A DNA stretch of 64,000 bases from Candidatus Poribacteria bacterium (GTDB taxonomy: Bacteria > Poribacteria > WGA-4E > WGA-3G): positions 2,944,001 through 3,008,000 of the forward strand of contig CBDANF010000003.1 in assembly GCA_965197475.1 (NCBI GenBank). Direction: 5' to 3'. Each line of letters opens with the position of its first letter. Within the stretch, counting starts at the first letter, position 1. Position numbers and translations under genes: made by a program. The notes under the pieces were generated by a model, which was not told the origin of the DNA, did not search any database, and saw nothing but the letters and a program-made list of their open reading frames with translations. This document shows, in pieces, positions 5,745 to 14,609 of the stretch.

Positions 5745-5916
5745 AAATGTGATCGGTGAATAGCCCACCTCAAACTGGGTATAGTATTGAGAAATTTATT
5801 GATTATGAAACGTGAATCTGGTATAAGAATACCAGATTACTATCTGTATTGCATTAGTGTTAAGTCCGTGCTTCAGAATTGGTAAAACCTCCTATATAGG
5901 AAAGGAGTCTCATTTG

Positions 5917-8900
5917 ATGAAAAAACATATTTTTCGTTTTGCCATATTTACGTTAATCTGTCTATTCTTTTGTATGCTATCTGTTGAGTTTGTTTATGCT
6001 GGGATTGAAGCTTCTATTATACTTGATATAGACCTTAACGAAAATGGTCTCATGCGTGATATTGCGGCGACAGCTACGCGTTTTTATGTCTTGTTTGCAG
6101 GCAGGCAACCGGAAATAGGAGGAACGTCCAATAGTGGATCGTCTTATATACGGAAAGTCTACGTTTTTGACCATGAAGGAACACGTAAACCAGACGAGGA
6201 GTTTGAAATAGATACAGAACTGACACCATACAGCATTGCAGTAACAAATAAATTTATCTATATTTCATACTGGGATAGTTCCGGTATTGATGCCTATGCG
6301 TTTGATGGTACGCGTTTACATGATGAGGGCTTACGTTATGCCTCTGCAGGTCAAAAAAGTAGTATAGCAGCAACAGAGACGCACATATATGTTTCAGATG
6401 TCTCTTATTTAGATGAAGTTGATATTTACAAGTTTAAAGATACACAAGGCGATCTAAACGCAAGGAACGTTTCCTGGGAGAAAGAATTTAAACTTACCAC
6501 AAATGAGAGTCTTAGAGCTTTCATCGCCGCAACAGATACCCGTGTCTATATCCAAAATCCTAACGATTCTACAATCTATGTCTACGATACCCGGGACGGT
6601 GGTAGACGCGCACGTGAAGATTTCGTACACTGCTTATGGACTGGGCTAAGGAAAGAATCTATTTACGTCCCCTCACGCTATTTATCAGGCATTACAACAA
6701 CACCATTAGGTGGAAAATTGTATATGTTAATTTCCCGATCAAGGGATGATGGAATAGAGGGACGCCAACTTAAGGTCTATAGGTATTCTATTCCGGAAGA
6801 AAATGCTGCACGTCCTGAGGTCTTTTTGCCTGCAAAACCGCCTCGCAGAGCAAGTTATTATTTCTATTTGCCGCCTTCTGGTTCCGGGATAGCTGCGACT
6901 GATACAACCGTCTATATAGGAGCTGATGGTTCACGTTATTTTGGTCGTGCTGCTACAATACATGCCGAAACCTATTCCGATGGGGTACCGGGCAGTTTAT
7001 TCGCAGATGCCGGCAAACTGAGAGGTAATATATCCGTAACCTATCCTCATCTAGGTTCTTCCGGTATGACAGTTGACTATAACAATATCTATCTGCTTAT
7101 TCGTCGGGCATCTGATGTACTTACTCAAGAACACAACTATGCCGTTCGACACTGTTTACTTAATTCAGATGGAACTATTCATGGTGGTAAGACGACATTA
7201 AGAGATCTTCAACTACCACTTGCAATGGAAAATTTTAAGAATGGAATAGGGCTAGCTATTGACTCAGAAGGAATTCTATACGTGATGGCTGCTGGTGAAA
7301 ATTACAAAGGACCTCCGCTAATCTATCGATATAAACCTTCATTGGATTCTCCACAACATAGTCAAGCTTTGCCTGGTAACCCTATCTTGTTACATCCTGA
7401 CCATAAGGCTCCATGCGGTATAACGATTGTAAAAAACCGCGCTTATGTTCTGGATAGGGCGTTTATAACTGATGAAGGCACCCCTCGATTGTACGCAAAG
7501 GTTTTTGTCTACGATTTGGATGCCCACGATGTATTTGAGTACTTACCTGAGGAGAGTTTTTTAGTAAATGCCCGAATAGGAAATCAGACAATCATACCGT
7601 ATGATTCAGGTATTGCTGTAAATGGAGACACATTTTTCATCTCAATGAGAGCAGAGTGGCCTTCCAATTATAAACATGTTCTTGTCTACGGTCCTCTTGC
7701 AGCACCGAGTTGGGGGCCCATACGCGCAGATACAATTCAGCGTAGGCAACCCTATGGTGGGGACATTAGAAGAATGTCAATAGTGGCTACAAATGGTAGT
7801 GACTACTACAAATACCAGGCAATCGAAGGTATTCCATGGATTCTTTCACTGGATTTTGACTTTGTATTTGGCAATCCTGATCCTTCCATTACCTTTAAAA
7901 CAGGTTATAAAAAACCAGAATGGTTGACCTTAAAGGATGGTGTTCTATCAGGTACCCCTTCATCAGCAGGTAAGTTAACAATTGAACTCACTGCCACCAA
8001 CGAACAAGGAAGTACGGATGAAAGTATCACCTTAAACGTTGGTCCGGGGGTTGTGGCACCGAGTTGGCATGATTTCTCAGTGCCAGAGATAAGGATACAC
8101 GATGCTTGGTCATTAACCTTAACTGACTTGGTTACTGGTAATCCGACACCGGAGATATATTTTACACAAGGATACACACCACCTGACTGGTTAAAGCTAA
8201 GAGAAGGCGTGTTATCAGGGACACCGCCAAAGGCGGGTACATATTCTATCCAAGTTACCGCTGCCAGTGCTCTCAGACGCCCTGGCTATGTAAAGTGGGC
8301 GGATATTGTGATATATTTGGTTGTCAAAGGTCCAACATCTCCTAATTGGGCACTTGATTCCATGAACGATACTGCACAAGGTATCGCCGCTACGGACAAC
8401 CGGATCTATGTGACAGACCTTATTGATGACAAAATCTATGTTTACGGACACGATGGAGAGCGATATGTTGCTCAGGATATAGACCTCAAGACACTCACAG
8501 AAAACCCAATCGGTATCACTGCTACGGTGACACATATCTATATTGTTGATAACAGCGAGGATATCGTCTCAATTTTAGATGTTACAGAAACAGGTTCTGT
8601 CGGCAATTTCAAGCTTGACCCCGATAATAGAGGTCCAACCGGTATTGCAGCGACAGCAAGACGACTTTATGTTGTTGACCACGAGGATGATAAGGTCTAT
8701 ACCTACGCACACGACGGTACACGGCACCCTACTGAGGATGTTAACCTGCACAAACATAGTGAACCCACCGGTATTACAGCGACAGCGACACGACTTTATG
8801 TTGTTGACGGTGATGATGACAAAATCTATCCCTATGAATATGATGGCAAAATGAAGAACAGTGAAATTGTTGAACTTGTTACAGAAAACAGAAGTCCAAC

Positions 8901-10707
8901 TGGTGTTACTGCAACACCAGCGCATCTGTTTGTCGCAGATATTATTGACCAGAAAGTCTATTCATATCCGATCCCTGGTGTTACCGAGGTTGTTGTAACT
9001 GTAGGCGCGCCGAGTTGGAAGCCCGTGTCAATTCCCGAAGCAGTGAAAGGTTCCCATTGGACGCTCTCCTTAGCAGATTTCGTAAAAGGGGACCCAACGC
9101 CACAGATCTACTTTACAGACGGTTATACGTCATCTAACTGGCTTACGTTGCAAAATGGTGTGCTTTCAGGCACCCCTACGATGGCTAACACTGAATATAT
9201 CAAAGTTACCGCAACAAATAGTAAGGGAAGCGCAGACATAACAGTACCGCTTTCTGTGTCGCATTCAGAATATACATCCTGGGACCTCAACCCCGAAGAA
9301 ATTTATGTAAATACCATTGCCAGCACAGAAGAGTTTGTCTATGTGTTTTATGGGACCCAGAATAATATACCTCACATAAGTGCTTACACTCATGATGGAA
9401 TTCGCCGTCCGGATAAGGATATAAAACTTGGAACGGAACATAGAAAAGACTCACACAGCATTAACACCCACATCACCGCCTCTGAAACACATCTTTTTAT
9501 GGTGGAGACATATAACGATTCCGATGAATCGAATCCAACTGGTGGAAGAAAAGTCTATGTGTTTGACATTACAGGAACAGGCACTAAACGGCATTTTTTT
9601 CTAAGTAGGGAGGTAGGTATGTACACAGCGGAGATTGCTGCCACTACAACGCGCTTTTATGCAGTCAATTGGTCTGAAAGGAAATTCCATGTTTACGGAC
9701 ACGATGGAACACCTTACCCAAATGAGGATTTTACACTCAAGCCGCACGACACTGAAGGTACATTTTTTTTGGACGTAGCGACAACTGAAACGCGTATCTA
9801 CGTTTTGTTAGCAAAAGTGAATGGTTATGTTCGTGGTAAAGTTTTTGTATATGGGCATGATGGCACACCTTATCCTGACGAAAACTTCAACGTCGGTGAA
9901 GTAAAAACTGTAGATATTACAGCAACATCAACGCATCTGATGGCATATTCCGGTCCGTATCTTAGAGGCATAAATACCGGCTCTATTTTTTACTTCCCAC
10001 TTCCTGAGGCGGAAGGAAACACCGAAACAGCTGTTCATATCCAAGATACAACGCCCGCTTGGGATGTCAATCAGGATGGAAAGGTTGATATCCAAGACCT
10101 AATTAAGGTCGCACAGTATATTGATGAAACAGAACTTTCTAATCCACAAGCAGACGTAAATGGAGATGGAACAATTGATGTTCAAGACCTACTCATTGTT
10201 TCACAACATTTAGGAGAATCAGCTGAGGCAGCATCACCTATAAAAACAACTGCTTTGCGATTTCCTGCCCTTGTAAAAAACGTTGCAGATGGTGATGTCA
10301 CAACGGAACTAATTCAAACATGGATAGACCTTGCGCGGATTTCGGACGATGGTTCGCCTGTTTTTCAGCGCGGTATTGCAAACTTAGAACGTCTATTAGC
10401 TGAGATGCTACCAGATAAGACAGAACTCCTCGCAAACTATCCGAATCCTTTTAACCCAGAAACGTGGATACCTTACCATCTTGCTAAGGAAGCTGAGGTG
10501 CAAATTACTATTTACGATATAAACGGTGCTGTCGTGAGACAATTAGACCTGGGATTGAAACTCGCCGATAATTATACGGACCGTTCCCGAGCTGCTTTTT
10601 GGGATGGACGCAATGCTGATGGTGAGAAGGTTGCAAGCGGAATTTACTTCTATCAACTCCGTGCAGGCGGCTATGATCACACCCGCAGAATGCTTATTGT
10701 TAAATAG
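5917..10707 (+). CDS. Large secreted protein: beta-propeller (NHL-like GIAAT..R.YV.D) repeats, three putative-Ig (He_PIG-like) domains, dockerin-like EF-hand pair, C-terminal FlgD-Ig/T9SS-like domain
   Basis: Signal-like N-terminus. Three P.WLTL..GVLSGTP repeats. DVNQDGKVDIQDL/DVNGDGTIDVQDL. LLANYPNPFNPETWIPY...WDGRN..GEKVASGIYFY. Confidence 0.85.
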   Translation: MKKHIFRFAIFTLICLFFCMLSVEFVYAGIEASIILDIDLNENGLMRDIAATATRFYVLFAGRQPEIGGTSNSGSSYIRKVYVFDHEGTRKPDEEFEIDTELTPYSIAVTNKFIYISYWDSSGIDAYAFDGTRLHDEGLRYASAGQKSSIAATETHIYVSDVSYLDEVDIYKFKDTQGDLNARNVSWEKEFKLTTNESLRAFIAATDTRVYIQNPNDSTIYVYDTRDGGRRAREDFVHCLWTGLRKESIYVPSRYLSGITTTPLGGKLYMLISRSRDDGIEGRQLKVYRYSIPEENAARPEVFLPAKPPRRASYYFYLPPSGSGIAATDTTVYIGADGSRYFGRAATIHAETYSDGVPGSLFADAGKLRGNISVTYPHLGSSGMTVDYNNIYLLIRRASDVLTQEHNYAVRHCLLNSDGTIHGGKTTLRDLQLPLAMENFKNGIGLAIDSEGILYVMAAGENYKGPPLIYRYKPSLDSPQHSQALPGNPILLHPDHKAPCGITIVKNRAYVLDRAFITDEGTPRLYAKVFVYDLDAHDVFEYLPEESFLVNARIGNQTIIPYDSGIAVNGDTFFISMRAEWPSNYKHVLVYGPLAAPSWGPIRADTIQRRQPYGGDIRRMSIVATNGSDYYKYQAIEGIPWILSLDFDFVFGNPDPSITFKTGYKKPEWLTLKDGVLSGTPSSAGKLTIELTATNEQGSTDESITLNVGPGVVAPSWHDFSVPEIRIHDAWSLTLTDLVTGNPTPEIYFTQGYTPPDWLKLREGVLSGTPPKAGTYSIQVTAASALRRPGYVKWADIVIYLVVKGPTSPNWALDSMNDTAQGIAATDNRIYVTDLIDDKIYVYGHDGERYVAQDIDLKTLTENPIGITATVTHIYIVDNSEDIVSILDVTETGSVGNFKLDPDNRGPTGIAATARRLYVVDHEDDKVYTYAHDGTRHPTEDVNLHKHSEPTGITATATRLYVVDGDDDKIYPYEYDGKMKNSEIVELVTENRSPTGVTATPAHLFVADIIDQKVYSYPIPGVTEVVVTVGAPSWKPVSIPEAVKGSHWTLSLADFVKGDPTPQIYFTDGYTSSNWLTLQNGVLSGTPTMANTEYIKVTATNSKGSADITVPLSVSHSEYTSWDLNPEEIYVNTIASTEEFVYVFYGTQNNIPHISAYTHDGIRRPDKDIKLGTEHRKDSHSINTHITASETHLFMVETYNDSDESNPTGGRKVYVFDITGTGTKRHFFLSREVGMYTAEIAATTTRFYAVNWSERKFHVYGHDGTPYPNEDFTLKPHDTEGTFFLDVATTETRIYVLLAKVNGYVRGKVFVYGHDGTPYPDENFNVGEVKTVDITATSTHLMAYSGPYLRGINTGSIFYFPLPEAEGNTETAVHIQDTTPAWDVNQDGKVDIQDLIKVAQYIDETELSNPQADVNGDGTIDVQDLLIVSQHLGESAEAASPIKTTALRFPALVKNVADGDVTTELIQTWIDLARISDDGSPVFQRGIANLERLLAEMLPDKTELLANYPNPFNPETWIPYHLAKEAEVQITIYDINGAVVRQLDLGLKLADNYTDRSRAAFWDGRNADGEKVASGIYFYQLRAGGYDHTRRMLIVK

Positions 10708-10838
10708 TATCAAATGACCATAGGATATCTGGAAGGTTGATGTTTATTGGCTTCCCAGCGATCATTAATGAGTGGGTTGCGTTGGGATCGCGAGCATCCT
10801 CTTTGAGAAATGATGCGTTTAGCGATAAACGTGTCTAA

Positions 10839-10867
10839 AGTATAGCAAAACCAGTAGCGGTTGTCAA
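10839..10867 (-). promoter_or_regulatory. Near-consensus sigma70 promoter inside the 3' end of the DUF1670 element
   Basis: Minus strand TTGACA-17 bp-TATACT with an extended -10 TG. Confidence 0.7.
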
Positions 10868-10934
10868 CCATATTTTCAAGGCACCTGCCCCGGTTTTGCG
10901 AAGTAAAGTTCGTCGGGAACATAGGATTAGGGTC

Positions 10935-11819
10935 TCATTGGGCTTCTCCTTGGTGAGTGGCTTCATCGTTTGAGTCTGAATTGGCAAGGTCTGCATCTAT
11001 GGCTTGGAGTTGGTGCTGCGGTATGAGGTCGAGATATTGAGAGATGACGCGTTTAGAAAGTCGTGTAATCTGTGAGATTTTATCAATATCTGCGGTTGCT
11101 TTCCGAACGACTTTGACGCTCTCATAATCGCGAATGTATCGGTCAACTGCCTCCTTAGAGTGTTTGGTCTTTGCGGCAATCCTGGGGGTGAGATGTCCTT
11201 GAAGATAGAGGGTTATGATCTCTTTCTTATGGGTAATAGCCCCCGATAAGTCATGGATATTGCCACGGGTGGGCAAGAGTTCTCCAGTGGTTTTTTGCCA
11301 TTCATTAACATAATCACAGACAACGGCATCGCAGACATTGAGCAAAACTGCCAAGTCGAGTTGTGTCAATAATGCCCCTTGGTCATAAGCTTGATGACAC
11401 CAGCGGACCAAGCGATTGATCCGCAATTGCCGGGAGGTGAAACCGTTGCGAAAGGATTCAATATCCTCTGCGGCGAGGTAAGTCAGGATGACGGGTTTCA
11501 TGCGGGTTTTGACGATGGACTTTCCTCTTTCTGGATGCTCTTCAATAGGGACAGCCATCCAAACGAGGTGTCCATAGCTCAGCAGCCGCTCCTCTGGGAG
11601 TGCGTCACCAGTGGCGAGTTTCTCCAAAGGAAGGGTAATCACGAAATAGTCCTCAACGGTCTTAAGAATATCATCAACAATAGCTGTCGCCGTGACTTCG
11701 CCTTTGTCATAACCGTAGTCATTGAGAAAGCGATGGATCAGCAACTGTCGTAGGGATTTATCGTTGATGCGTCTGAACTTTTTCTCGTTGATTTGGGTGC
11801 GCGTCAAAGGTTTGCTCAT
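10935..11819 (-). CDS. DUF1670-like protein (ORF2)
   Basis: QAYDQGALLTQLDLAVLLN...PTRGNIHD.S...THK...HSKEAVDRY; paralogous to ORF1. Confidence 0.75.
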   Translation of the reverse strand: MSKPLTRTQINEKKFRRINDKSLRQLLIHRFLNDYGYDKGEVTATAIVDDILKTVEDYFVITLPLEKLATGDALPEERLLSYGHLVWMAVPIEEHPERGKSIVKTRMKPVILTYLAAEDIESFRNGFTSRQLRINRLVRWCHQAYDQGALLTQLDLAVLLNVCDAVVCDYVNEWQKTTGELLPTRGNIHDLSGAITHKKEIITLYLQGHLTPRIAAKTKHSKEAVDRYIRDYESVKVVRKATADIDKISQITRLSKRVISQYLDLIPQHQLQAIDADLANSDSNDEATHQGEAQ

Positions 11820-12635
11820 CAGAGTTCCTCCTTTTTTTTCTCCACGGGCTCTGGGTGAAGGAGTTGGGTCATGCGATCGGTGTGTTGATATTCCTCGGAC
11901 AGCGAGAGATACTCGCGGATCAGCCGGTCAGAGAGATGAGTGATGAGTGATGAGCCGTATCTGTGCGTTAGGAAAACCTTGATGATGGAGCGTGGCGACT
12001 TGTATTAAGTCCCTCAAGTAGCGGTAGACGGCCCGTTCGGAGTGGTTCGTCTTTTGCTCAATCTCGGTGAAGGTGTATGCTTTGAAGGACAACTCAAGAA
12101 TCTGCGTCTTATGAGACAGTCCCGGGCCCATGTCGTGTTTCGCCCCGCGCGTCATCACGAAATAGCCGGACTGCTTCAACGCTCGGATGTCGCGTTTGAC
12201 GGTGGCAGGACTGGTAGTTAATAACACTGCCAAATCCTCATAACTCAGCAAGGCATCTTGGTCATAAGCTTCTTGGGTCAATCGGAGGATCCGATGCCGT
12301 CTGAGACCTGCGAGCCCATAAGTCGCTAAAACTTCAAGGTCGGCTTCAACATCGTTGAGTTTGAGTCGACAGGAAACTTTTTTCGCTAAAGCGATGTGTT
12401 TGCCTGCGGGTTCCTCAGCGGCGACTGCCTCATAGCAGATTTGCCCTGAGGTAAGTTGCACATCGGCGTGCTGTTCAAAGTAGGTGGAAATCTGTTTATA
12501 GTAGGCTTCAGCAACGAGAGGCATTAGATTAAAGTCTGCTGAAATCTTCTGAATAATAGCGGCTCTGGCATTCTTGGATTCCAGTCGATTGATACCGTAG
12601 GCGGTATCCTTCTTACGGTCCATATTGACCTCCAT
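11819..12635 (-). pseudogene. DUF1670-like protein (ORF1), frameshifted by a 7-bp tandem duplication
   Basis: EAYDQDALLSYEDLAVLL...TRGAKHDMGPGLSHK...HSERAVYRY. Removing one CTCATCA unit (~11934-11954) restores ...ITHLSDRLIREYLSLSEEY...EKKKEEL*, ending in a TGATG overlap with ORF2. Confidence 0.75.
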
Positions 12636-12757
12636 GAAGAAAGTGTCGGCGATGCAAATACATCTACCCGTTAGTTTAACGAATACTAATAGTATAACTC
12701 ATGGGGTCATTTGATACAAACTATAAGTAAGTTGAAACCTATTTCCTAAATATATGC

Positions 12758-12782
12758 GTAGGCGCGCTTTGTAAGCGCGCCT
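12758..12782 (+). repeat. GTAG-type REP-like palindrome
   Basis: GTAGGCGCGCTTTGTAAGCGCGCCT: GTAG followed by a hairpin. Confidence 0.6.
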
Positions 12783-12882
12783 CTCACAAAGGATAAAACA
12801 GCGTTTAGACTCTGCTTTTGCCGAACAATACACCTGCAAGATTCCGTGGTCTGCCACAACGCCCTATCTGAATTAGTAAACG

Positions 12883-13212
12883 CTAACGAATTGCAGTTGG
12901 GACAATTTGAGCGATAAATTTCAAACTGTTTTCCAACTTTTCGATTGCCTCTGATTCGCGAGCTGTCCCACTCTTGAGTTCAATCGAAACTCCCACAAGA
13001 TTATTTTCAGTTGGAGAAATAAAAAAGAGAAGTCGGTCACACCTTTTTTCAGTTTTTTGGCGCAAATCAAACTCATGTTCAAGATTTACAATCACCCGTT
13101 CGGATGGTATGTCATCCATGTCAACATTGCATCCTTCTCCACTGCATGCATCAACTAAACTACCTGTATTAAAACGTGCACGGAGTTCACCAAGAATTCT
13201 ACTCTGATTCAC
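12883..13212 (-). CDS. Small PD-(D/E)XK-like partner of the AAA ATPase (possibly C-terminally truncated)
   Basis: RCDRLLF...VSIELKSG motif; overlaps the ATPase stop. Confidence 0.55.
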   Translation of the reverse strand: MNQSRILGELRARFNTGSLVDACSGEGCNVDMDDIPSERVIVNLEHEFDLRQKTEKRCDRLLFFISPTENNLVGVSIELKSGTARESEAIEKLENSLKFIAQIVPTAIR

Positions 13213-14609
13213 GCTTAGTGTTGCCTTTCATTTCTTCAAGTCGATTTTGTAGACGTGCGGAACGGTTGTAAAGGTCCTCAGCGACATCCAAATATTCCAT
13301 CGGTTCAACGCCGTCAATACGATTGTAAGGTATTTCTTCCACCTTTCCATTTTTCTGAAAATGCCAAATTCCAACTTGTTCTGTCTGAAGAGAAGTCGGC
13401 AGGTCGCTAACTTCCTGCCCTGCGTTCTCAAGTTCTCCTGCACGTATCAGATTCCCTATTTCCTGAAGTAACCAATCGCTATGTGTTGTTATTATTATTT
13501 TCACGCCTGCCCGAACTAAACGTGCAAGAATGACTGCCATGCCTGCTTGGGCACCCGGGTGTAGGTGTGCCTCCGGTTCTTCAATGATCAGCGTATCACC
13601 TGGCTGTACAAGACTTCGGAGATATAGGACTAAGGGCGCAAGTTCAGATACCATTGAGGAAGATTGGCTGAGACGAAATTCTTCATTAGTGCCTTGTGGT
13701 AAATAACGAAAGTCCGGATACCCACTCGCTGAAGGTTTTAAGCGTATCTTTCCAGCAAGTACTTCAGTTTCCAAAGTTTCAGAATGTTGTTTCATCTCAG
13801 CATTCGGTTTTTTTGGTTCTTCGTAAAGGATAATTTTTTCCATAAAGTCTGCTATCACTCCTGACATAGTGGGAACCTCAGGAAAACGTTCGAAACCTAC
13901 TCGGGTTGATCGCTTTACAAGCGAAGTTGCTATCACTCGATGACTTTGCATGATGCCGCTCCGGGCAGCAGGAAGGTAGTAACGGTTTCCTCCATTTTTG
14001 ATGTTTCCCTTAAAACCATGTATTTTTTTTACTCCGCTTGTCAGTTCAACTCCCCAATCTCCGCTAAAAGTGAAATTAAAATTACCTTCACCTTTCCAGT
14101 CTGTGGAGATTGCCAATCCCTCAGGAATAAGAATCATAGTCTCGTTGAATGAACTATTAAGGATAACATCTGATTCAGATGTATTTAACTTGATACTCCA
14201 ACCGTCTTGCTGTTTTTCATCAACCATCAGTGAAACAGTCATTTCATTTTTTTCTCCCGTTGTCAATCGTCTTAATTCCAAAATTGCATCAAAATCATAA
14301 CAGTTTTTGAGTTCAGACTGTAGTTTGTCCCCAAAAACCTCTGCATCATCAATAATTGTCTTTAAGAGATCTCGTAGTTCTGTTGGAAAATCTAACAATC
14401 TAAAGGCCCCTGTCACTGGTGTTTAGTTTTTTGAGCACATCCTGAACTTTTTGCTTTGCTGATGGACTCGCGTTTGTCAAAACAAAGTTCTGTAAAGCAT
14501 GTAAAATACCTACAATCCCTTGGAGCCCAGATGGAAATAGAAGTTGGGGTTCTGTCATATCCGGAAATACACCGTACAAGGCGTACACCAGCGTAGAAAA
14601 ATAAGTTTT

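What the first reader, a model, noticed from the sequence alone, without database searches (positions are those of the whole stretch)
10720..10867. Strong promoter plus a structured ~95-nt non-coding segment at the end of the DUF1670 element (possible element-encoded RNA)
Seen: downstream of ORF2 lies TTGACA-17-TATACT (minus strand), pointing at the terminal repeat. The segment 10739-10832 forms a three-way junction: outer stem GTTTAT.GCT/AGC..ATAAAC, hairpin GCATC...GATGC, and hairpin GCGATC-(22 nt)-GATCGC. Caveat: the plus strand gains extra G-U pairs, so the folding strand is uncertain. Known: IS110/IS1111 and IS200/605 elements encode guide RNAs in their non-coding ends. Inference: this could be a cofactor or guide RNA, or a promoter that drives the ORFs across a circle junction. 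I could not find a convincing match between the loop and the target site.
Basis: partly seen in the sequence, partly recalled or inferred. Interest (0 to 1): 0.75.

Follow-up and report, generated by a model that had tools for sequence, protein, structure and literature searches.

The report
Promoter and structured end of new IS
This is the non-coding right end of an undescribed, many-copy mobile element of sponge-symbiont Poribacteria; it holds a strongly conserved outward promoter and conserved hairpins, which suggests an element-made RNA, but not the three-way junction or guide RNA first proposed.

Summary
The promoter is real. TTGACA-17-TGnTATACT (10867-10839, minus strand) is the best sigma-70 match in the element. 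Its key positions are kept in all 46 distinct homologous ends, while the spacer varies freely.

The proposed three-way junction is not conserved: RNAalifold finds no consensus fold, and 71% of cells pair against 69% in shuffles. Local hairpins recur:
- H1 (10816-10831) shows compensatory changes.
- A long hairpin, D2 (10724-10763), abuts the terminal inverted repeat.
- The last 131 nt is the most structured window of the element (mean z -2.6).

Context: a 2,023-bp element (10702-12724) with two DUF1670 helix-turn-helix genes, about 20 copies. It inserts exactly before the Lys-stop of T9SS C-terminal-domain genes, occupying 18 of 51 such gene ends, and supplies a new AAATAG.

Chloroflexota relatives carry strongly covarying stem-loops at the same place (12 and 7 compensatory pairs). 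One Anaerolineae relative keeps the promoter at the same distance from the tip.

A guide role is not supported. No target complementarity rises above chance, target class does not track this region, and 9 of the 46 distinct ends lack 34 nt of it.

Best reading: an element-encoded right-end RNA and outward promoter that serve the element's own transposition control. A third ORF is rejected.

The parts
10702..12724 (-). Whole mobile element, 2,023 bp. Both ORFs lie on the minus strand. The crossover falls within a 2-nt AA, so each boundary is ambiguous by 2 nt.
   Evidence: 18 full-length copies and 2 partial copies at 90-97% identity in the same genome. Junctions were aligned. Homologous genes without the element end ...ATTGTT AAG TAA.
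10702..10707 (+). AAATAG, a Lys codon and stop codon carried by the element. It now ends the host T9SS C-terminal-domain gene (5857-10707).
   Evidence: The left junction reads AAATAG in all 19 aligned copies, while the right flank varies as AAR TRR.
10707..10719 (.). Subterminal inverted repeat at the ORF2-distal end (GTATCAAATGACC on the plus strand).
   Evidence: Perfect 13-nt complement of 12705-12717. The core GGTCAT(A/T)TGA is shared with Chloroflexota relatives.
10839..10867 (-). Outward promoter Pout: -35 TTGACA at 10867-10862, TG at 10847-10846, -10 TATACT at 10844-10839.
   Evidence: 11 of 12 with TG. Key positions are invariant in 46 of 46 distinct ends while the spacer varies. A related site lies at the same distance from the tip in Anaerolineae locus L112.
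10702..10832 (-). Predicted Pout transcript up to the element tip, about 131 nt. The start is inferred as 7 nt after the -10. The 3' end is unknown.
   Evidence: The start is inferred from the promoter. No terminator-like site was found. RNA-library contigs cover the stretch but show neither strand nor ends.
10816..10831 (-). Hairpin H1 at the 5' end of the predicted transcript (CGUUUA-UCGC-UAAACG).
   Evidence: 5 of 6 pairs show changes on both sides, for example UG 13 / CG 11 / UA 10 and UA 30 / GC 6. A different hairpin sits at the same place in the 9 shortened ends.
10794..10816 (-). Hairpin H2 (GCAUC...GAUGC around CUC/GAG).
   Evidence: 77-83% of cells paired. Most of it is deleted in 9 of 46 ends.
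10724..10763 (-). Long imperfect hairpin D2. The arms are 10751-10763 and 10724-10736, and the loop 10737-10750 holds the conserved AAUAAACAU. It ends 4 nt from the inverted repeat.
   Evidence: 80% of cells paired. Changes are one-sided only: G-U 28 / G-C 11 / A-U 6. Present in all four subgroups. Counterpart hairpins with compensatory changes occur in relatives.
10935..11819 (-). ORF2, a 294-aa DUF1670 protein.
   Evidence: PF07900 E 7e-61. AlphaFold model with pLDDT 85, all-helical with several helix-turn-helix motifs. No solved fold matches at E <= 0.001.
11928..12635 (-). ORF1, a DUF1670 protein. In this copy it is cut short at the C-terminus by a frameshift; the listed ORF is 235 aa.
   Evidence: PF07900 E 8.4e-55. 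From the shared ATG the window copy reads 230 aa against 265 aa in an intact copy of the same genome.
12705..12724 (.). ORF1-proximal end: inverted repeat GGTCATTTGATAC (12705-12717) followed by the 7-nt tip AAACTAT.
12725..12730 (+). AAGTAA, the displaced original Lys-stop of the host gene (right flank of the insertion).

Best explanation
The segment is the right-end control module of a new site-specific insertion element.

What it contains: a near-consensus extended -10 promoter (Pout) fires on the ORF strand towards the element tip. It transcribes the last ~131 nt, which hold a 5' hairpin (H1), a variable middle part (H2), and a long hairpin (D2) that ends 4 nt from the subterminal inverted repeat.

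Most likely role: this gives an element-encoded non-coding RNA. I think it acts with the two DUF1670 helix-turn-helix proteins at the right end, as a scaffold or regulator of transposition. It is not a programmable guide.

Second consequence: nothing terminator-like follows the promoter, so the same promoter would read into ORF1-ORF2 whenever two ends are joined, in a circle or a tandem pair.

Shown:
- conservation of the promoter;
- structure potential above background;
- compensatory changes in H1 and in the counterpart modules of relatives;
- exact site-specific insertion without a target duplication.

Inferred:
- that the RNA is made, and where it starts and ends;
- that it binds the proteins;
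- any joined-end intermediate.
For: PROMOTER
- Scores 11 of 12 with TG and is the best site in the element.
- Key positions are invariant in 46 of 46 distinct ends, which by my count of the loci lists come from 34 genomes. The spacer varies freely but keeps its length.
- The distance from the -35 to the tip is 165-170 nt in 37 ends and 133-137 nt in 9 ends.
- An Anaerolineae element whose ORF2 is only about 30% identical carries CTGTCA-18-TGgTATAGT 166 nt from its tip, followed by a structured region (z -2.6 and -4.0).

STRUCTURE
- Mean z is -2.33 on the ORF strand over 46 ends.
- The terminal window is the most structured of 15 windows in 6 elements.
- The local-hairpin model pairs 78.3% of cells against 74.6% in shuffles. 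Its covariation score is 0.157 against 0.117 (0 of 500 shuffles reach it). H1 has 5 of 6 pairs changed on both sides.
- The shortened subgroup has a different hairpin at the H1 position.

FAMILY TRAIT
- 16 Chloroflexota ends share a three-helix rod between ORF2 and the inverted repeat (-67.7 kcal/mol, 44 pairs, 12 compensatory).
- 20 others share a 19-bp hairpin (-34.9 kcal/mol, 7 compensatory), with G-U in 17 of 20 sequences at one pair on the ORF strand.

EXPRESSION CONTEXT
- Apart from a 9-of-12 site that overlaps it, no other site on the ORF strand of the element reaches the scan's threshold of 9 of 12, and no terminator-like site was found.
- RNA-library contigs from 4 studies cover 10703-12724.
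Against: - No direct evidence of a transcript. The runs are contigs without strand, ends or levels, and DNA carry-over cannot be excluded.
- Positional RNAalifold on all 46 ends finds no consensus fold (-0.11 kcal/mol).
- D2 varies on one side only, so it gives no compensatory evidence.
- The strand is unresolved: G.T 122 against A.C 90, and H2 leans the other way. Dyad-symmetric DNA sites or single-stranded DNA hairpins would therefore fit as well.
- The shuffle control ignores relatedness, so 0 of 500 overstates the support (note in the tool's own description).
- Relatives with only 28-60 nt after ORF2, and without an internal promoter, show that the promoter is not needed by every DUF1670 element.
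- The 34-nt deletion in 9 ends shows that much of H2 is dispensable.
Confidence: 0.45

Rival explanations
1. Junction-activated expression only. Pout matters solely because it is placed upstream of ORF1-ORF2 once the two ends are joined, in a circle or a tandem pair, which couples expression of the proteins to excision. The 131 nt between promoter and tip would then be protein-binding end sequence, and the RNA as such would have no role.
For: - Insertion without a target duplication, through a 2-nt AA overlap, fits recombination via a joined-end form.
- Pout is the only site on the ORF strand that reaches 9 of 12, apart from a 9-of-12 site overlapping it. By my own reading of the sequence, the site upstream of ORF1 (TTGTAT-17-TATACT) matches only 3 of 6 in the -35.
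- No terminator lies between Pout and the tip.
- In relative L113, TTGACA lies at the right tip and TATAAT at the left tip. With boundaries set by analogy, the joined ends would read TTGACA-18-TATAAT.
- One locus (L034) shows a right end abutted to a remnant of a left end.
- Junction promoters are described for IS110 and IS1111 (passages read in PMC11187229).
Against: - No joined-end sequence of intact copies was seen. There was 1 hit, a remnant, in the whole genome plus all loci held at that point.
- This reading does not explain why the distance from promoter to tip is kept across phyla.
- It does not explain why hairpins with compensatory changes are kept.
- The L113 boundaries are inferred, not observed.
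Confidence: 0.25
2. DNA-level end architecture. The dyad symmetries H1, H2 and D2 and the repeat-like blocks are binding sites, or single-stranded or cruciform DNA hairpins, for the multi-helix-turn-helix DUF1670 proteins. The promoter mainly opposes transcription that runs in from the convergent host gene.
For: - The proteins are made of several helix-turn-helix motifs.
- In one subgroup the repeat core TCATTTGAT occurs twice in the same direction, 54 nt apart, at this end.
- The strand test is indecisive.
- Both strands fold better than shuffles.
- In the T9SS class of targets the host gene always reads into this end.
Against: - Stem arms 93 nt apart, with compensatory changes and G-U pairs on the ORF strand in relatives, are hard to read as protein half-sites.
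- H1 was replaced by an unrelated hairpin in the shortened subgroup, rather than its sequence being kept.
- The promoter is also kept in lineages that insert into intergenic palindromes.
Confidence: 0.17
3. Programmable guide RNA of the bridge RNA or seekRNA kind. Loops of the RNA would base-pair with the target and the donor and so choose the insertion site.
For: - The architecture resembles IS1111: subterminal inverted repeats, a non-coding region downstream of the transposition genes, no target duplication, and insertion into repeated conserved sites or palindromes in one orientation (passages in PMC11187229).
- Short matches exist. The D2 loop AAUAAACAU is complementary to target positions -12 to -4 (ATGnTnATn), with p 0.01-0.035 per window and uncorrected.
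Against: - Own-class complementarity gave p 0.06-1.0 in 16 elements. The only p of 0.01 was to the wrong class.
- The same D2 loop occurs in an element of the other target class (L037).
- L008 (palindrome class) and L032 (T9SS class) have ends 95.7% identical. L008 and L036 (same class) are 81.6% identical.
- In all, 9 ends lack 34 nt of the region.
- Relatives with 28-60 nt after ORF2 exist.
- No DEDD recombinase is present.
- Split matches of 4-7 nt would escape my test.
Confidence: 0.08
4. Decayed or small third ORF (the 70-aa frame 10922-10710), or a chance promoter-like match with no function.
For: A 70-aa ORF overlaps the segment in this copy.
Against: - The 70-aa frame is kept in 2 of 31 ends examined. 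Elsewhere the longest frames differ in strand, frame and length (23-77 aa).
- Its upstream part is deleted in several lineages.
- It matches no Pfam or NCBIfam family.
- Chance is excluded by conservation of the promoter in 46 of 46 ends.
Confidence: 0.02

Closest known systems
IS1111-family elements with seekRNA (ISEc11, ISPa11, ISKpn4) and IS110 bridge RNA
   Same: - Subterminal inverted repeats.
- No target duplication.
- Orientation-specific insertion into conserved repeated sites, including palindromes.
- A sizeable non-coding region downstream of the transposition genes, next to the right end, from which an RNA on the gene strand is made or proposed.
- Promoter activity linked to joined ends.
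(Passages of PMC11187229 read; window features.)
   Different: - The proteins are two paralogous DUF1670 helix-turn-helix proteins, with no DEDD/RuvC-like fold.
- The promoter is complete inside one end, not assembled at a junction.
- No target or donor complementarity above chance.
- Some relatives have almost no non-coding region.
- No Rfam match.
IS200/IS605-family right-end (omega) RNAs of TnpB.
   Same: A structured RNA that overlaps the 3' end of the last gene and the right end. Its transcript would run out into the flank, which is the target sequence. In the Chloroflexota relatives the outer stem starts inside the end of ORF2.
   Different: - No TnpB or IscB nuclease and no HUH transposase.
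- The element has inverted repeats and a double-strand-type junction.
- No Rfam hit to IS605-orfB or HEARO-type families.
ISPpu9 (IS110 family) with the Ssr9 small RNA gene downstream of the transposase. Only the start of the abstract was seen in the listing (PMC12288879).
   Same: A small RNA gene lies downstream of the transposase gene, inside an element that inserts into repetitive palindromes.
   Different: The protein family is different. I did not read that paper's text, so no further comparison is made.
Outward or junction promoters of IS3, IS30, IS256 and IS110 elements, and pOUT/RNA-OUT of IS10 (recalled).
   Same: A promoter near an element end that fires outward. It may boost transposase expression when the ends are joined.
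   Different: - Here both hexamers lie in one end, about 137 nt from the tip.
- Unlike RNA-OUT, the transcript lies on the same strand as the ORFs and at the far end, so it cannot be antisense to the start of the ORF1 message.

Membership tests
IS110/IS1111 (bridge RNA / seekRNA elements) | DEDD (RuvC-like) transposase | tested here: not met
   Only PF07900 and helix-turn-helix families match. NCBIfam has no family for ORF2, and the PDB sequence search found nothing better than E 0.19. The AlphaFold model is all-helical, and Foldseek against PDB gave 0 matches at E <= 0.001.
IS110/IS1111 (bridge RNA / seekRNA elements) | RNA from the non-coding region with segments complementary to both strands of the target | tested here: inconclusive
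   No complementarity above chance in 16 elements, and target class does not track the region. Split matches of 4-7 nt cannot be excluded by this test.
IS110/IS1111 (bridge RNA / seekRNA elements) | Site-specific insertion without target duplication; subterminal inverted repeats (IS1111) | tested here: met
   The junctions of 19 copies and homologous genes without the element show insertion at NNN^AAR TRR with only a 2-nt AA shared. The inverted repeats start 5-7 nt inside the tips.
IS110/IS1111 (bridge RNA / seekRNA elements) | Circular intermediate with abutted ends | not testable with these tools
   Only one abutted end, a remnant, was found in the sequences held.
Sigma-70 promoter with extended -10 | -35 TTGACA, 17-nt spacer, TGn, -10 TATAAT-like, with the key positions conserved among homologues | tested here: met
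   11 of 12 with TG. G of the -35, the TG, and T, A, A, T of the -10 are invariant in 46 ends. Activity was not tested.
Any Rfam RNA family | Covariance-model match | tested here: not met
   0 matches at E <= 1 in window 10500-13000. In 8 related loci there was one chance miRNA hit at E 0.87.
IS200/IS605 TnpB omega RNA | TnpB or IscB nuclease gene whose 3' end overlaps the RNA | tested here: not met
   No such domain in ORF1 or ORF2.
DUF1670 (PF07900) two-gene element | ORF1-like and ORF2-like DUF1670 genes in tandem, flanked by inverted repeats with the core GGTCAT(A/T)TGA | tested here: met
   Window. Nine of 11 Chloroflexota and other loci examined show both genes in tandem. Related inverted repeats were found in 4 of 6 loci examined (L108, L109, L112, L113) and in L119 and L133. 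55 loci carry the right-end repeat motif.

The most novel reading that the evidence does not exclude
The right-end RNA is an obligatory partner of the DUF1670 proteins, which show no recognisable catalytic fold. In that case these elements would be a third, independent kind of RNA-dependent DNA transposition system beside IS110/IS1111 and TnpB/IscB elements. The RNA would serve as scaffold, site selector or even part of the chemistry. It is driven by its own promoter in Poribacteria and carried on the 3' end of the ORF message in Chloroflexota.
Probability: 0.15. Interest if true: 0.92.

Novelty: new variant of a known kind. Interest (0 to 1): 0.66.

Why it matters
Site-specific insertion elements that carry their own RNA became important with bridge RNAs and seekRNAs. 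This element behaves in the same way: an exact site, one orientation, no target duplication, subterminal repeats, and a structured non-coding right end.

Its proteins differ, however. They belong to a family of unknown function with only DNA-binding motifs. That family was not found in the searched literature: 0 papers for DUF1670, PF07900 or IPR012871.

The conserved promoter gives a concrete, testable transcript. The covarying modules in relatives show that a nucleic-acid structure at this end is under selection.

The element is also a neat case of a 'polite' parasite. It lands on the last codon of secreted-protein genes and brings a replacement Lys-stop.

If the RNA proves necessary, this would be a new recombination system. 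If not, it is still a well-defined new IS family and a marker of genome dynamics in sponge symbionts.

Tried and rejected
- A single consensus fold of the whole region: RNAalifold found none on either strand. The structure is kept through register shifts, which a positional alignment blurs.
- A third ORF: rejected.
- Known RNA families: none.
- Known protein families and folds for ORF2: NCBIfam none, PDB by sequence none, Foldseek none, and the protein atlas returned only helix-turn-helix clusters at 0.81 or less.
- Guide-like matches:
  - A position-weight scan gave a few windows at p 0.005-0.035 before correction.
  - None survived the class-swap test.
  - A 7-nt identity of L008 to the palindrome target is absent from L036 and L037, which use the same target.
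- Strand assignment by wobble counts: indecisive.
- RNA evidence: 4 RNA-library runs from 4 studies were laid. They are contigs only, so they show presence but not transcription, strand, ends or level. A 165-nt contig spanning exactly 10703-10867 is most likely an assembly break, not a transcript.
- Joined ends: 1 remnant only. I did not scan public collections for the joined-end sequence because that would need a typed joined sequence.
- Distant relatives via alignments: two calls failed for lack of conserved columns. A single distant protein found nothing.
- Promoter-like sites after ORF2 in 48 metagenome relatives: found at scattered positions in 13. Only L118, which repeats the promoter site of L112, shows that site.
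- Not seen: the supplementary files of PMC11187229, which hold sequences of the non-coding regions. They could refine the comparison.

Full report
WHAT IS THERE

The finding lies in the 233 nt between the stop of a minus-strand gene (ORF2, 10935-11819) and the stop codon of a large plus-strand gene (5857-10707). ORF2 and the gene before it (ORF1, 11928-12635) both match Pfam DUF1670, with E 7e-61 and 8.4e-55, plus helix-turn-helix families.

The stretch 10702-12724 is a repeated element. The same genome (5.7 Mb, 3 contigs) holds 18 full-length copies and 2 partial copies at 90-97% identity.

THE ELEMENT AND ITS TARGET

Aligned junctions show a 13-nt inverted repeat set 5-7 nt inside each tip. 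The left junction reads AAATAG in all 19 aligned copies. The right flank varies as AAR TRR.

Five homologous genes in other species that lack the element end ...ATTGT(T/G/A) AAG followed by a stop codon. The element therefore sits exactly before the last Lys codon of the host gene and brings its own Lys-stop. Nothing is duplicated beyond a shared AA.

The host genes encode T9SS-type C-terminal sorting domains. Of 51 such gene ends found in this genome, 18 are occupied and 33 are empty, and 18 of the 20 copies sit at such ends.

The element occurs in 41 of 159 genomes of the order. Within the phylum it is found only in three families: 43 of 176 genomes, and none in the 24 genomes of the other families. 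One source names its proteins 'DUF1670 domain-containing protein [Candidatus Poribacteria bacterium]'. Runs labelled sponge metagenome hold the element.

Some lineages use a second target, the loop/3'-arm border of a palindrome, AGAAACCGAGTTTTGARG^AAAAAACTCGGTTTC:
- Palindrome class: 10 of 10 copies in one genome, 4 of 4 in a second and 3 of 3 in a third.
- T9SS class: 5 of 5 and 2 of 2 copies in two other genomes.

THE PROMOTER

TTGACA-17-TATACT, with TG before the -10, is confirmed at 10867-10839 on the minus strand. It is the best promoter-like site in the element (11 of 12). No terminator-like site was found.

I collected 46 distinct right ends. The columns that never vary include G of the -35, the TG, and T, A, A, T of the -10. 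The spacer changes freely but keeps its length. The -10 is TATACT in 44 ends, TATAAT in one and TACACT in one.

The distance from the -35 to the tip is 165-170 nt in 37 ends and 133-137 nt in 9 ends.

THE STRUCTURE

- The minimum-energy fold does not use it.
- The 148-nt segment folds no better than shuffles (z -0.39 and -1.76).
- It is not kept in relatives. RNAalifold finds no consensus (-0.11 kcal/mol), and the named structure pairs 71.1% of cells against 69.1% in shuffles, with fewer double changes than expected.

Even so, the predicted transcript (about 10832 to 10702) is more structured than chance. Mean z is -2.33 on the ORF strand and -1.73 on the other strand over 46 ends. In 6 elements it is the most structured of 15 windows (-2.64 against +0.60 to -1.66).

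The single folds share a plan:
- a hairpin right at the start (H1, 10816-10831);
- a nested middle hairpin (H2, 10794-10816);
- a long imperfect hairpin (D2, 10724-10763) ending 4 nt from the inverted repeat.

Counted on the alignment, this local model pairs 78.3% of cells against 74.6% in shuffles. H1 has changes on both sides in 5 of 6 pairs, while D2 varies on one side only. The shuffle control ignores relatedness, so this is moderate support.

Nine ends lack 34 nt (most of H2) and carry a different perfect hairpin at the H1 position. One genome of that group has many copies, and the copies whose flanks I read sit in T9SS-class sites.

Wobble counts do not settle the strand: G.T 122 against A.C 90.

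RELATIVES OUTSIDE THE PHYLUM

DUF1670 proteins number about 1,010 representatives at E <= 0.001 in a library of 1.8 billion proteins. Many lie on contigs of about 2 kb.

Chloroflexota and other loci have the same ORF1-ORF2 pair, and several have inverted repeats with the core GGTCAT(A/T)TGA. Downstream of ORF2 they differ:
- Some have only 28-60 nt before the repeat.
- 16 ends share a ~135-nt three-helix rod (-67.7 kcal/mol, 44 pairs, 12 with compensatory changes).
- 20 ends share a 19-bp hairpin (-34.9 kcal/mol, 7 compensatory pairs, with G-U on the ORF strand in 17 of 20 at one pair).
- One Anaerolineae element (L112) has a 200-nt region with CTGTCA-18-TGgTATAGT 166 nt from its tip, the same distance as here, and a strongly folding sequence (z -2.6 and -4.0).

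A structure next to the right repeat, on the ORF strand, is therefore a trait of the family. The internal promoter is an addition seen in Poribacteria and in that one relative.

IS IT A GUIDE?

I found no support for this:
- Best local matches between the transcript and the consensus of its own target class gave p 0.06-1.0 in 16 elements. The only p of 0.01 was to the wrong class.
- The loop motif AAUAAACAU, complementary to ATGnTnATn in T9SS targets, also occurs in an element that uses the palindrome target.
- Ends that are 95.7% identical use different classes, and ends that are 81.6% identical use the same class. ORF2 identity follows class slightly better: 91.7% against 88.4%.

Very short split matches would escape these tests.

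THE PROTEINS

The ORF2 model (pLDDT 85.3) is all-helical with several helix-turn-helix motifs. No solved structure matches at E <= 0.001. Sequence searches of PDB and NCBIfam, and the protein atlas, add nothing beyond helix-turn-helix.

How the DNA is cut and joined is therefore unknown. This keeps an RNA partner, a host enzyme or a new catalytic fold all open.

EXPRESSION DATA

Fourteen RNA-labelled runs from 4 studies hold part of the element. In 4 runs from 4 studies, contigs cover 10703-12724. Contigs give no strand, ends or level, and DNA may be present in such libraries, so this shows presence only.

VERDICT

The best reading (0.45) is an element-made right-end RNA with an outward promoter that serves the element's own transposition control. 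The rivals are:
- a promoter that matters only across joined ends (0.25);
- DNA-level end sites (0.17);
- a programmable guide (0.08);
- a third ORF or chance (0.02).

No paper in the searched library mentions DUF1670, PF07900 or IPR012871. None of the 10 papers that hold both 'Poribacteria' and 'insertion sequence' has such an element as its subject, judging by their titles and abstract starts.

Noticed in passing
window 10702-12724; same genome: The element itself looks like an undescribed insertion-sequence family. It has two DUF1670 genes and about 20 copies. It inserts exactly before the Lys-stop of T9SS C-terminal-domain genes (18 of 51 such gene ends occupied) and replaces the Lys-stop with its own AAATAG. 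No known transposase fold was found.
   Followed up: partly
window 11928-12635: ORF1 of this copy is cut short by a frameshift near its C-terminus. From the shared ATG it reads 230 aa against 265 aa in an intact copy, so this copy may depend on other copies.
   Followed up: partly
own genome C3:94103-94563 and C3:434717-436528 (outside the window): Two partial copies. The first is an internal-deletion derivative that joins the first ~156 nt of the right-end region to the last ~297 nt of the other end; it sits at a T9SS gene end. The second is a copy with an interrupted ORF1-proximal part.
   Followed up: no
loci L007, L036, L037, L083-L094 (other genomes): Some lineages insert into a repeated 13-bp-stem palindrome (AGAAACCGAGTTTTGARG^AAAAAACTCGGTTTC), always at the loop/3'-arm border: 17 of 17 resolved copies in three genomes. 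What this palindrome does for the host is unknown.
   Followed up: partly
L034 about 3208 (G064): A right end abuts an 18-nt remnant of a left end (...ACTAT AAATAGTATCAAATAACC...). This suggests repeated insertion at the Lys-stop site that a resident copy recreates.
   Followed up: no
L113 1642-1660 and 3295-3329: A Chloroflexota relative has TTGACA at its right tip and TATAAT at its left tip. If the boundaries follow the window's element, the joined ends would read TTGACA-18-TATAAT.
   Followed up: no
proteins P0013, P0015, P0022, P0025 (about 930-950 aa) and P0062, P0116, P0137 (about 520-530 aa): Fused forms with three or two DUF1670 units exist in the representative library. The control genome Methanosarcina acetivorans also carries the family.
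   Followed up: no
window 12883-14416, minus strand: Next to the element lie a 405-aa AAA_15/AAA_21 (AbiEii-type) ATPase gene and an overlapping 109-aa ORF with no family match. This may be a small defence-like pair.
   Followed up: no
window 5857-10707: The host gene encodes a 1,616-aa repeat-rich protein with a dockerin-like segment and a T9SS-type C-terminal domain. Metatranscriptome contigs match its conserved NPFNPETW region very deeply, but those come from many paralogues.
   Followed up: no
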